A DNA stretch of 64,000 bases from Candidatus Woesearchaeota archaeon (GTDB lineage: Archaea > Nanobdellota > Nanobdellia > Woesearchaeales > JAFGUC01). This document shows, piece by piece, positions 15,001-18,000 of the stretch; positions within the stretch are counted from its first letter, which is position 1; each line of letters opens with the position of its first letter. Location: positions 1 to 64,000 of the forward strand of contig JAFGUC010000043.1 of the NCBI GenBank assembly GCA_016938695.1. Direction: 5' to 3'. The position numbers were made by a program.

Positions 15001-18000
15001 CTTAAAATATTCTCTCCACTGTGGCACATGAATCAAGAAAGCGAAATGGAAAATATAATTCGACAAGGATTCAAAGTAATATTGATAAAAATTGCTGGAG
15101 ACGGTCTAAACAAAAATTGGTTAGGAAAAATCTTAGAACAAAAAGATCTTGATAAATTAAAAGAGCTAAATAAAAAAATGGGGTTTAATGTAGCTGGAGA
15201 AGGTGGAGAATTCGAAAGCTTTGTCTTAGACATGCCAATGTTCAAAAAAAAAATAGAAGTCAAAGGTCAAATAGAAATGGAAAATGAATACACAGGAGAA
15301 TTCAGGATTACAGAAACTAAATTAATAGATAAAAAATAAATTTATTTCTTATTCATCTTTTCAAAAATAGCATTCTTTAAGGACTTAAACTTTTCAACTA
15401 ATACTCCAGAAACAACCCCAAAAGATTTCTTGACATCTTCTTTTGCTTTATTTAAACGAATCTCATTTAGTATTCCATAACCACGAATATATTTTAAAAG
15501 CTCAGTTTGTTCTATTTTCATTCCACTTTGACGCGACCAACCTTCAAAATAAACCATCGATTCAAGTCGTGCACGAAGAGGTTCGCTTGGTTTTTCATCA
15601 GAATACCCAACAGTAATTATGACTTGTGGTCGAATGAACTCTTCAAGACCTAAAATACTCGAAACAGTATCTTCATTGAATGCACCAACCCAACAAGAAC
15701 CAAGTCCTAAAGAGTGAGCGCATAAAAGCATGTTTTGAGCAGATGCTGCTGCGTTCTGGACTGCATAAAGCCTAGTTCCACGAGCACCATATAATCTTTC
15801 AACATTCCTTATATCAGAACAAACAACTATATGTATCGGAGCAGATTCCATCCAATGTTGGTCAAATGAAGCAGATGCTAAAGCTTTTCTATTACCTGCC
15901 GATTGAACAACAATAAAACGTCGTTCTTGTAAATTCCCTGAACTTGGAGCATAGCGACCAGCATCGATAATTTCAGCAACTTTATACCATTCGACATCTT
16001 GGTTTCTATATCGCCTAACACTTCTCCGACTTACAATTGAATCAACTACATCCATAAAAAAAAGAAAGTAAAACTCCATTATAAAACTATCCTTTATAAA
16101 ACAAAATCAAAAACACACAAAAATATCACTATACAATACTAACATTTTTAAATTAAAACCTTTCAATTCAAAAAATATGTTAACTACGGTGCTAGGAAGA
16201 GAAGAAAGAATTTCAGATAATTTTGTAGGATTAGTAAAAGATGTATTCGGACCAAAATTAAAAAAAGCTTATTTTGAAGAAGAATCATCTAAAAAAACAG
16301 TAGAAAGATTACAAAATGAGACCTGGAAGATTGACAAATTAAATCTAATAGGAATGGCACAAGAGTACTATAAAAAAAGACACAACACAACAAATCTTCA
16401 TCTAAAAGAAACAATTACACCAATCATACTTAGATATTCTGAATTAAAAGGAAAAGATAAACTTAGAATTGCTAGAAAAAAAGAAACGGAATCGATTGAC
16501 GACATTGTTCTAGACAGCATAGTAGACATTACAGATAGAGCAGAAGTTGAAGTTTTTGCTAATTATGTAGGACTTAGAAAAACAAATGTTGGAAAAAACA
16601 AAAGACGAAAACTTGAGAAAAAATTAGGACTAAGAATAAATCCAACAAATCCTGAAAAAGTAAAAGCGGCGCTTTATTACAGTAATACATTACAACAATA
16701 TTTCAATCCACAATCCTTAACTCAGATTTCCGAAATAGAAATAAGAAATTCTCCAAAAAATAATCTATCAGAAGTTTCAGCATTAACTGGAATCCGTGCA
16801 AGCACAATTCAATATTGGACTAGAAAAATTGAAAATCGAGACGACATCCAAGAATTCAGACAAGACACTTTTGGAAGAAGATTCTCTGATTTAACACAAG
16901 AAGATATAATAAAAATTTATCTTAACAAAAAAAGACAAGGTCTAACATATGAACAGACAAAAGACGAACATAATCTAAGCAGTACATATGCCGTTAAACA
17001 AATTGTTCAATATGGAAAGCAGAACATAAAAGAAACCCTTCCAGCAATAAAACAAAATTTATAATGAAGTACTCATTCTAAAATAATAATGATTGATCCT
17101 GTTTTTTTAAGAATCGGTAGCTTAGAACTAAGATACTACGGTCTAATTTACGCAGTAATGTTTCTTCTAGGAACATTTATAATAATAAAACTTGCAGAAT
17201 ATAGACGAGAAAAACTAAAAATAAAATCATATCAAAAAATAACTAAAGACACAATATATGATTACATGATCTATCTTATAATTGGATCAATTCTAACCGC
17301 AAGAATATTCCACATAATATTTTATAACCTTGATTTCTATATACAAAATCCTTTAGAAATAATTGCATTCAATCACGGAGGAATGTCAATACACGGTGGT
17401 TTTGTTGGTGGAATTTTAGCAACATTATTATTCTGCAAGAAAAGAAAAATTCATTTTTATGATATCGCAGACCTTGTAATGATTCCTGTAGCATTAGGTC
17501 TTGCAGTTGGTAGAATTGGAAATTTAATAAATCAAGAATTATGCGGAAAACCATCTAATGTTCCATGGGCAATAACATGTGGAAAAGATGAAATTCTTCG
17601 TCATCCATCGCAGATTTATGAATCACTAAAAAATCTAACAATATTTATCATACTTCTTTTATTAAATAGAAAACATTTGAAAAGAGGAACTATATTTTGG
17701 ACATTTATTTTAATGTACGGAATTCTAAGATTTAGTGTTGAATTTTTTAAAGATATGCCTGTTATTACATTGGGTTTAACAATGGGTCAAATTCTAAGTG
17801 TACCAATGGTTATTGTTGGCTCAATTATGCTATACAAAATTGAAAAATGTACGAAAAACCACAATTAACTGAAATAATACAAAGACTAGAACAAGAAGGA
17901 ATTAGAGTTTACGATTTTAAACCAATAGCATTTGATTTTGTGATTGCAGAAACATCGTTAAAATCCATAGAATTACATTTAGGATTTAAAGCAGACAATT

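What a model noticed while it worked through the whole genome (the two positions that open the first line are those of the whole stretch)
17089..17868. Bacterial lipoprotein pathway (Lgt + LspA) in a DPANN archaeon, replacing AliA
The genome encodes an intact bacterial-type prolipoprotein diacylglyceryl transferase (g00025, two genes from archaeal EF-2) and a lipoprotein signal peptidase II (g01228, C70:321751-322170), has at least 24 lipobox proteins, and lacks the archaeal lipidation enzyme AliA (DUF63). The Lgt+LspA pair is an order-wide trait of Woesearchaeales, so this lineage matures lipoproteins the bacterial way.
Evidence so far: Lgt keeps the motifs HGG, GRIGNxxNxExxG, HPSQxYE and RFxxEFxK; LspA keeps NxG, GNxxER, DF and FNxAD; 24 proteins have a hydrophobic signal ending in [GAS]-C. 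PF01790 in 55 of 61 order genomes, PF01252 in 30 of 31, both in 0 of 4 control archaea; DUF63 in 0 of 61 while present in 3 control archaea. Tables: Lgt 705 of 822 in the order but 54 of 8257 archaea outside the phylum; LspA 688 of 822 and 9 of 8257. In the 30 loci read, lgt often lies among archaeal genes such as PCNA, Alba, NAC and TFIIB. PMC12462473 (passages, section 7, supplement search; calls 19, 29, 168) says no archaeal Lgt or Lsp homologs were identified; its own tables give AliA 0 and 12 predicted lipoproteins for the two Woes [...]
(Added by a program. Inside this text positions count along the whole contig: contig position 1 is position 1 of the stretch shown here. "Call 12" and the like, gene names such as g00115 and contig names such as C1 are that model's own, and its searches are not shown. 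The text may have been shortened before it was handed on; [...] marks where a part breaks off. The agent that wrote the report below was given it as the finding of a first reader that could run no searches.)

Follow-up and report, generated by a model that had tools for sequence, protein, structure and literature searches.

The report
Bacterial lipoprotein pathway in tiny archaea
This small uncultivated archaeon, like most of its relatives, carries intact copies of three bacterial enzymes (Lgt, LspA, Lit) and lacks the archaeal enzyme AliA, so it likely anchors its surface proteins the bacterial way, probably with scavenged bacterial-type lipids, although a 2025 specialist paper says no archaeal Lgt has been identified.

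Summary
Confirmed and extended. Window 17089-17868 is an intact Lgt (E. coli Lgt fold, TM 0.85; residues essential in E. coli kept) beside archaeal EF-2. In the order: Lgt 140/151, LspA 139/151, DUF63 0/151. The pair also marks 13 of 19 families from other orders of the class; the four DUF63-positive genomes lack all three enzymes. Lit occurs in 154/201 and moves an ester-linked acyl chain, which argues for bacterial-type diacyl lipids; most genomes make neither lipid core, so the donor is likely scavenged. Against this: archaeal-type CarS in 82/201. One origin of the main Lgt group is not rejected; direct displacement of AliA is unproven because Pacearchaeota mostly lack both. No assay exists. 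Novelty is reduced: Castelle 2021 Table S3 already lists Lgt, LspA and DUF1461 (Lit) in 71-83% of Woesearchaeota, uninterpreted, and this scan found it before in three other genomes.

The parts
17089..17868 (+). lgt, prolipoprotein diacylglyceryl transferase, 259 aa (P0001). Y17, G98-M99-S100, H102, G141, R142, N145, E150, G153, H172, Y210, R214, E218, K221 align with E. coli Y26, G99-M100-S101, H103, G142, R143, N146, E151, G154, H196, Y235, R239, E243, R246. Its partners lie outside the window: lspA G000:C70:321751-322170 (-), lit G000:C20:344152-344832 (-), psd-pssA-carS G000:C20:313081-315008 (-).
   Evidence: partners:
17847..18266 (+). 139-aa ORF overlapping the lgt stop by 22 bases; no Pfam or NCBIfam match; no sign that it belongs to the pathway
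16177..17064 (+). 295-aa ORF ending 24 bases upstream of lgt on the same strand; no Pfam or NCBIfam match; context only
18279..20459 (-). archaeal elongation factor EF-2, convergent with the lgt pair; ndk-, L24e-, S28e- and L7Ae-like ORFs follow (named by inspection); anchors lgt in an archaeal chromosome

Best explanation
The genome encodes intact Lgt, LspA and Lit and about 23-30 lipobox proteins but no AliA or Lnt, and it likely matures these proteins by the monoderm bacterial route with an ester-linked diacylglyceryl anchor from scavenged lipid. Steps: (1) precursors with a hydrophobic signal ending in L-S/T/A-G/A/S-C, among them three ABC solute-binding proteins, exist (shown by sequence). 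(2) Lgt would move a diacylglyceryl group from phosphatidylglycerol onto the Cys thiol (inferred from fold and residues). (3) LspA would cut off the signal peptide with its D101/D115 pair (inferred). (4) Lit would shift the sn-2 acyl chain to the free amino group, giving lyso-form lipoproteins (inferred); this needs an ester carbonyl, which archaeal ether lipids lack. (5) The cell has no route to either lipid core, so the donor likely comes from outside, most simply from bacteria (inferred). The set was likely gained from bacteria early in the clade of this order plus a sister group, whose ancestors used AliA (inferred). That Lgt and LspA mature the cell's own lipoproteins I put at about 0.9; the confidence given is for the whole chain including the ester donor.
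For: Fold: AlphaFold model pLDDT 92.4, only Foldseek match with E<=0.001 is E. coli Lgt 5AZB, TM 0.85. Y26, H103, G142, R143, E151 are essential in E. coli, and Y26 and M100 contact the sn-2 ester (PMC4728403 passages); all are kept in P0001. R143 and R239 columns: 66 of 66 main archaeal rows. LspA dyad 50 of 50 (dyad and conserved set from PMC6952399 passages). Lit: PF07314 E 3e-31, PDB 7B0O E 3e-13; H85, H153, F157 columns 29 of 29; the amine attacks the sn-2 carbonyl (PMC8275575 passages). Lgt 140/151, LspA 139/151, both 130/151, DUF63 0/151. Phylum sample: Lgt 184/201, Lit 154/201, DUF63 4/201, all four without Lgt, LspA and Lit. lit lies within about 3 kb of lgt in 5 of 69 lgt loci; lit and lgt are 1 base apart behind a lipobox gene, with lspA 1 kb away, in G272. 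No full-length GGGP synthase in 201; PlsY 6/201; PlsX 0/5, Lnt 0/5. Codon use of lgt and lspA is typical of the genome. AliA is present in other DPANN (Hong table) and in lineages outside the Lgt clade of the RpoA1 tree.
Against: No activity, lipid or proteomic data. CarS-family genes occur in 82/201 genomes, next to a CDP-alcohol transferase in 23 of 29 loci, beside lgt in G192, and in a psd-pssA-carS operon in G000; characterised CarS prefers the archaeal DGGGP over phosphatidic acid (review PMC9385802 passage). G000 has no recognisable PgsA (its one PF01066 hit is PssA-like). Lit is missing from 47/201, scores 56 bits against the 400 cut-off of the Bacillus Lit model, and its gene has atypical GC3 (97th percentile). 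DPANN with an identified host have archaeal hosts (PMC7414124 and bioRxiv 2025.11.11.687807 passages). Some archaeal Lgts change G142 or H103. The free Lgt tree did not recover one archaeal clade and mixes the two orders.
Confidence: 0.62

Rival explanations
1. Same pathway, archaeal lipid: Lgt and LspA have adapted to ether-linked archaetidylglycerol taken from an archaeal host, and Lit is a relic or does something else.
For: CarS in 82/201 genomes with head-group enzymes beside it; CarS selectivity for DGGGP; lipid transfer from an archaeal host is known for N. equitans (PMC7414124 passage); Lit absent from 47/201.
Against: Lit's catalytic His pair is invariant in 29 of 29, Lit tracks Lgt and never occurs in the ten genomes lacking Lgt and LspA, and lit is linked to lgt or lspA in several genomes. 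Lgt keeps the ester-contacting positions. Lineages with AliA, an enzyme already suited to ether lipid, do not carry Lgt.
Confidence: 0.2
2. Same pathway with ester lipids, but the cell builds them itself from scavenged fatty acids and glycerol phosphate through divergent acyltransferases and a CarS turned to phosphatidic acid, so no bacterial host is implied.
For: Weak PlsC-like hit in G000 (E 2e-6) and G025; psd-pssA-carS operon; PlsY in 6/201; fatty-acid and cyclopropane-synthase genes reported in some Woesearchaeota (PMC10936187 and PMC8204110 passages).
Against: PlsY missing in 195/201; PlsX 0/5; PlsC-like only 2/5; no CdsA beyond a partial hit within carS; GpsA hits are short matches in 431-aa ORFs. 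Single-contig genomes G025 and G220 have Lgt and LspA but no CDP-alcohol transferase.
Confidence: 0.13
3. The genes are contamination, misassembly or recent non-functional transfers.
For: G000 is a metagenome bin with 5.42% contamination; a few genomes hold divergent second copies.
Against: Present in single-contig genomes G016, G025, G084, G096, G220, G276; two genes from aEF-2 on a 270-kb contig, bridged by one contig; no stops in any listed match; nearest tree neighbours are all from the same class.
Confidence: 0.02

Closest known systems
E. coli Lgt (PDB 5AZB/5AZC; PF01790, TIGR00544)
   Same: Same fold (TM 0.85, 31% identity in the structural alignment), signature motif and essential residues.
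   Different: Archaeal host; shorter head region; F102 is Ile and R246 is Lys; donor lipid cannot be made by the cell; activity untested.
LspA of P. aeruginosa and S. aureus (PDB 5DIR, 6RYO; PF01252)
   Same: Asp dyad and the conserved N, G, N, R, V, F, N, A positions.
   Different: 139 aa, shorter; Glu in place of the Asp before the conserved Arg (Asp in 45 of 50 relatives); below the TIGR00077 cut-off.
Lit of Bacillus cereus (PDB 7B0O; PF07314), lyso-form pathway of some Firmicutes
   Same: H85/H153 pair, D88, V89, F149, F157, W162; Lgt + LspA + Lit without Lnt is the same enzyme set.
   Different: Far below the narrow NF051877 cut-off; near-core gene here (154/201) while patchy in bacteria (1 of 10 control bacteria).
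AliA/AliB of Haloferax volcanii (arCOG02177/02178, DUF63; PMC12462473)
   Same: Same job: lipid on the lipobox Cys.
   Different: Unrelated or barely related in sequence; attaches thioether-linked archaeol; absent from all 184 Lgt-positive genomes of the phylum sample.
Castelle et al. 2021, Table S3, module_15 (PMC8204110)
   Same: Lists LGT in 0.83, signal peptidase II in 0.83 and DUF1461 in 0.71 of 196 Woesearchaeota genomes.
   Different: Main text has 0 hits for 'lipoprotein', 'lgt', 'diacylglycer', 'signal peptidase'; DUF1461 is not named as Lit; no link to AliA, substrates or lipid type.
Patescibacteria (CPR) Lgt
   Same: Small symbiont-type genomes that keep Lgt (43 of 61 in the phylum of G291); their dependence on outside lipid is recalled, not tested.
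   Different: Bacteria; their Lgts scatter over the tree and do not single out a donor.

Membership tests
Lgt (PF01790/TIGR00544) | Score over the curated family cut-offs, full length | tested here: met
Lgt (PF01790/TIGR00544) | Lgt fold | tested here: met
Lgt (PF01790/TIGR00544) | Y26, H103, G142, R143, N146, E151, G154, R239, E243 | tested here: met
Lgt (PF01790/TIGR00544) | Transfers diacylglyceryl from PG to the lipobox Cys | not testable with these tools
   needs an assay
LspA (PF01252) | Family score | tested here: inconclusive
   Pfam 81 bits over 25; TIGR00077 67 under 73.95
LspA (PF01252) | Catalytic Asp pair and conserved residues around it | tested here: met
   D101, D115; 50 of 50 rows
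LspA (PF01252) | Globomycin-sensitive cleavage of lipid-modified precursors | not testable with these tools
   needs an assay
Lit (PF07314) | Family score | tested here: inconclusive
   Pfam 108.6 over 24, TIGR01906 85 over 74.8, but NF051877 56 under 400
Lit (PF07314) | H85/H153 pair, F157, W162 | tested here: met
   H87, H157, F161, W166
Lit (PF07314) | Intramolecular sn-2 acyl transfer giving lyso-form lipoprotein | not testable with these tools
   needs an assay
Monoderm bacterial lipoprotein pathway | Lipobox substrates above chance, with typical cargo | tested here: met
   23 vs 2.2 expected; three solute-binding proteins among 16 lipobox proteins scanned
Monoderm bacterial lipoprotein pathway | Own synthesis of phosphatidylglycerol | tested here: not met
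   no PlsX, PlsY, CdsA, PgsA or clear GpsA in G000
Archaeal AliA/AliB pathway | DUF63 protein encoded | tested here: not met

The most novel reading that the evidence does not exclude
Woesearchaeales and a sister order are archaea whose membranes are at least partly made of bacterial ester phospholipids taken from bacterial hosts or prey; they swapped the archaeal lipidation enzyme for the full bacterial Lgt-LspA-Lit set to use them. The Lgt/Lit versus AliA split would then be a genomic marker of host domain across DPANN and a lineage-wide breach of the lipid divide.
Probability: 0.4. Interest if true: 0.9.

Novelty: new variant of a known kind. Interest (0 to 1): 0.68.

Why it matters
Hong et al. 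2025 state in their abstract that no archaeal Lgt homologs have been identified, and note genomes with many predicted lipoproteins but neither AliA nor AliB as an open gap. This fills that gap for one of the most diverse archaeal orders. Lit adds a chemical argument on an older question: what the membranes and hosts of the uncultivated Woesearchaeota are. Earlier hints at bacterial lipids rest on a few genomes (PMC10936187, PMC11868695 passages); this set is nearly universal in the order and can be tested with three expressible membrane enzymes, without culturing the organism. The enzymes themselves are textbook, and their occurrence already stands in a 2021 supplementary table and in NCBI names.

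Tried and rejected
Donor lineage: not identified; the bacterial sample is biased (a motif scan favouring Proteobacteria-like Lgts, 30 Patescibacteria-phylum loci, 9 plasmid copies; no Bacteroidota, few Firmicutes). Strict vertical descent of Lgt: not supported, the two orders interleave in the Lgt tree but are separate in RpoA1. Direct displacement of AliA: unresolved, family f141 has neither system and sits in an open fork with the two Lgt groups. The RpoA1 tree has no outgroup outside the class, and G239 and G169 are joined by a long branch that probably reflects insertions. A divergent AliA in G000: none. The 13 PF01884 matches are short and weak and were not counted as GGGP synthase; PF01210 and PF13685 matches were not counted as GpsA or EgsA. 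Expression: no RNA holder listed; not evidence. Runs X2-X4 do not cover lgt; not evidence. Complex prediction not run (enzyme-substrate pair). Paper searches that found no statement of this pathway in DPANN; subscription journals and bioRxiv supplements were not searchable and may hold more.

Full report
Observation. Window 17089-17868 (+) is an uninterrupted 259-aa frame that passes the Pfam and TIGR cut-offs for Lgt. A 139-aa ORF of no known family follows, then archaeal EF-2 on the opposite strand. The contig is C7 (270 kb) of a 1.50-Mb bin, 99.24% complete, 5.42% contaminated. One contig of run X1, which may be the source sample, bridges lgt and EF-2 without a difference. Codon use of lgt is ordinary for the genome.

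The enzyme looks working. The AlphaFold model from 120 homologues has pLDDT 92.4 and matches only E. coli Lgt, 5AZB, at E 7e-15, TM 0.85. The alignment to 5AZB (chain numbering is one higher than E. coli's) keeps Y26, G99-M100-S101, H103, G142, R143, N146, E151, G154, H196, Y235, R239 and E243; F102 is Ile, R246 is Lys. Mao et al. (PMC4728403, passages) show Y26, H103, G142, R143 and E151 mutants inactive and Y26 and M100 touching the sn-2 ester. Among 66 main archaeal rows R143 and R239 are invariant; H103 is kept in 55 and N146 in 60. LspA keeps the Asp pair (D101, D115) in 50 of 50 rows; the conserved set is from PMC6952399 (passages), the P. aeruginosa numbers used as labels are recalled.

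Substrates. A loose rule gave 32 lipobox candidates among 1499 called genes, 2-3 of them false by inspection. With the canonical box, Cys follows 23 times against 2.2 expected. Of 16 candidates scanned, three are ABC solute-binding proteins; others carry Ig/PKD, vWA, beta-propeller or Kazal domains, and seven have no Pfam match.

Distribution. In 151 genomes of the order (G000 included): Lgt 140, LspA 139, both 130, at least one 149, DUF63 0. Controls: Lgt and LspA in 10 of 10 bacteria and 0 of 4 archaea, DUF63 in 3 of 4 archaea. In a second, overlapping sample of 201 high-quality genomes of the phylum: Lgt 148 of 154 in the order and 36 of 47 in other orders; LspA 37 of those 47; by family the pair is present in 13 and absent in 6. 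DUF63 occurs in 4 of 201, in four of the six families without the pair. No genome has both systems. Kin are not independent, so I give no P value. That AliA is DUF63 rests on the labels in Hong's alignments.

A third enzyme. Earlier scan notes named Lit; I tested it. G000 encodes it at C20:344152-344832 (PF07314 E 3e-31; B. cereus Lit 7B0O E 3e-13). H85, H153 and F157 are invariant in the 29 of 31 loci that aligned. Lit is in 154 of 201 genomes, 129 of 154 in the order and 25 of 47 outside, and in none of the ten lacking Lgt and LspA. It lies near lgt in 5 of 69 lgt loci of 2.7-12 kb, and in G272 a lipobox gene, lit and lgt stand in a row with lspA 1 kb away. Lnt was found in 0 of 5. Lit works by attack of the Cys amine on the sn-2 carbonyl (PMC8275575, passages). 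Ether lipids have no such carbonyl (established chemistry), so a conserved Lit points to an ester diacylglyceryl anchor. This is inference.

Where the lipid comes from. No full-length GGGP synthase in 201 genomes (13 short weak matches set aside); PlsY in 6 of 201; in five genomes PlsX 0, PlsC-like 2, weak. G000 has no EgsA-family hit. So most of the lineage makes neither core. Against a purely bacterial membrane: G000 has a psd-pssA-carS operon, CarS-family genes are in 82 of 201, with a CDP-alcohol transferase within 1.5 kb in 23 of 29 loci, and characterised CarS prefers the archaeal substrate (review PMC9385802, passages). Either these cells also handle ether lipids or the CarS has changed substrate. 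This is unexplained.

History. FastTree on 222 rows put 58 of 70 archaeal sequences in one weakly supported group (0.58), two more beside it, and ten with a Cys at the N146 position among Patescibacteria-phylum and other bacterial paralogues. IQ-TREE on 97 of the rows did not recover one clade in the quick search, but holding the 38 main sequences together gave a likelihood 58.7 higher, p-AU 0.973: one origin is not rejected, not shown. They group with Proteobacteria-, Nitrospirota-, Desulfobacterota-like and some Patescibacteria Lgts (99); no donor can be named. An RpoA1 tree of 31 genomes separates the order (99) from the 13 Lgt-positive outside families (91), leaves f141 (neither system) in an open fork with them, and places the four AliA genomes and f137 apart; the Lgt tree mixes the two orders, so transfer within the class or old paralogy is likely. 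Hong's table gives AliA in N. equitans, Nanobsidianus, 7 of 7 Aenigmarchaeota, 3 of 3 Nanohaloarchaea and 9 of 11 Micrarchaeota rows seen, 0 of 7 Woesearchaeota and 1 of 25 Pacearchaeota (60 of 67 DPANN rows seen). AliA is thus ancestral, but its loss may precede the gain of Lgt.

What is in print. Hong 2025 (PMC12462473; abstract, sections 7 and 12, supplement files 2, 5, 7 in part) says no archaeal Lgt or Lsp homologues were identified. The 2026 follow-up (PMC13631571, passages) has no hit for DPANN or Woese. Castelle 2021 (PMC8204110; term search of the text; Table S2/S3 rows) tabulates all three families in a Woesearchaeota module (0.83, 0.83, 0.71; Pacearchaeota 0.08, 0.04, 0) without discussing them. 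NCBI names several homologues as Woesearchaeota Lgt. PMC11868695 and PMC10936187 (passages) already suggest bacterial lipids or hosts from other genes. Searches found no paper stating the pathway; subscription papers and bioRxiv supplements were out of reach. Three earlier reports of this scan reached the same idea on other genomes; they are not independent evidence.

Verdict. A real, near-universal bacterial lipoprotein pathway in a large archaeal lineage, exclusive of AliA, with Lit as the best clue to ester lipids. Known enzymes in an unexpected domain, tabulated before but not interpreted, function untested. Interest 0.68.

Noticed in passing
L213, L216-L220 (best copy in the genome) and L221-L224 (second copies): A divergent Lgt type with Cys at the N146 position groups with Patescibacteria-phylum paralogues; in some families it seems to be the only Lgt.
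   Followed up: partly
G000:C20:313081-315008 (L373:5082-7009): psd-pssA-carS operon: head-group module in a cell with no lipid-core synthesis; carS abuts lgt in G192 (L393).
   Followed up: partly
G000:C7:247771-252527 (L374): Four tandem genes with lipobox-like N-termini and several further Cys; almost no Pfam matches.
   Followed up: no
L369 (G239), L370 (G169); L364, L366, L368 (family f141): RpoA1 frames of about 1360 aa with a split match (insertion, perhaps an intein) in two genomes; frames of 1145-1201 aa in f141, perhaps fused subunits.
   Followed up: no
L209:3775-5205 (G022); L212:3748-5094 (G107): An exosortase-family gene (PF09721) directly after lgt in G022; VKOR and AhpC/TSA genes after lgt in G107.
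   Followed up: no
window 13240-15339 (+): 699-aa ORF that by inspection joins an asparagine-synthase-like part to a diphthine-ammonia-ligase-like part; recalled likeness, not scanned.
   Followed up: no
window 9720-12270 (+): Adjacent glycosyltransferase-like and GH57-like ORFs, a possible glucan-storage pair; by inspection only.
   Followed up: no
L001:724-6615 (G000:C70:312723-318614): 1963-aa secreted-looking, Cys-rich protein a few genes from lspA.
   Followed up: no
L208 (G096) and window 17089-21185: lgt lies near ndk and L24e in both genomes; otherwise lgt neighbourhoods differ from genome to genome.
   Followed up: partly
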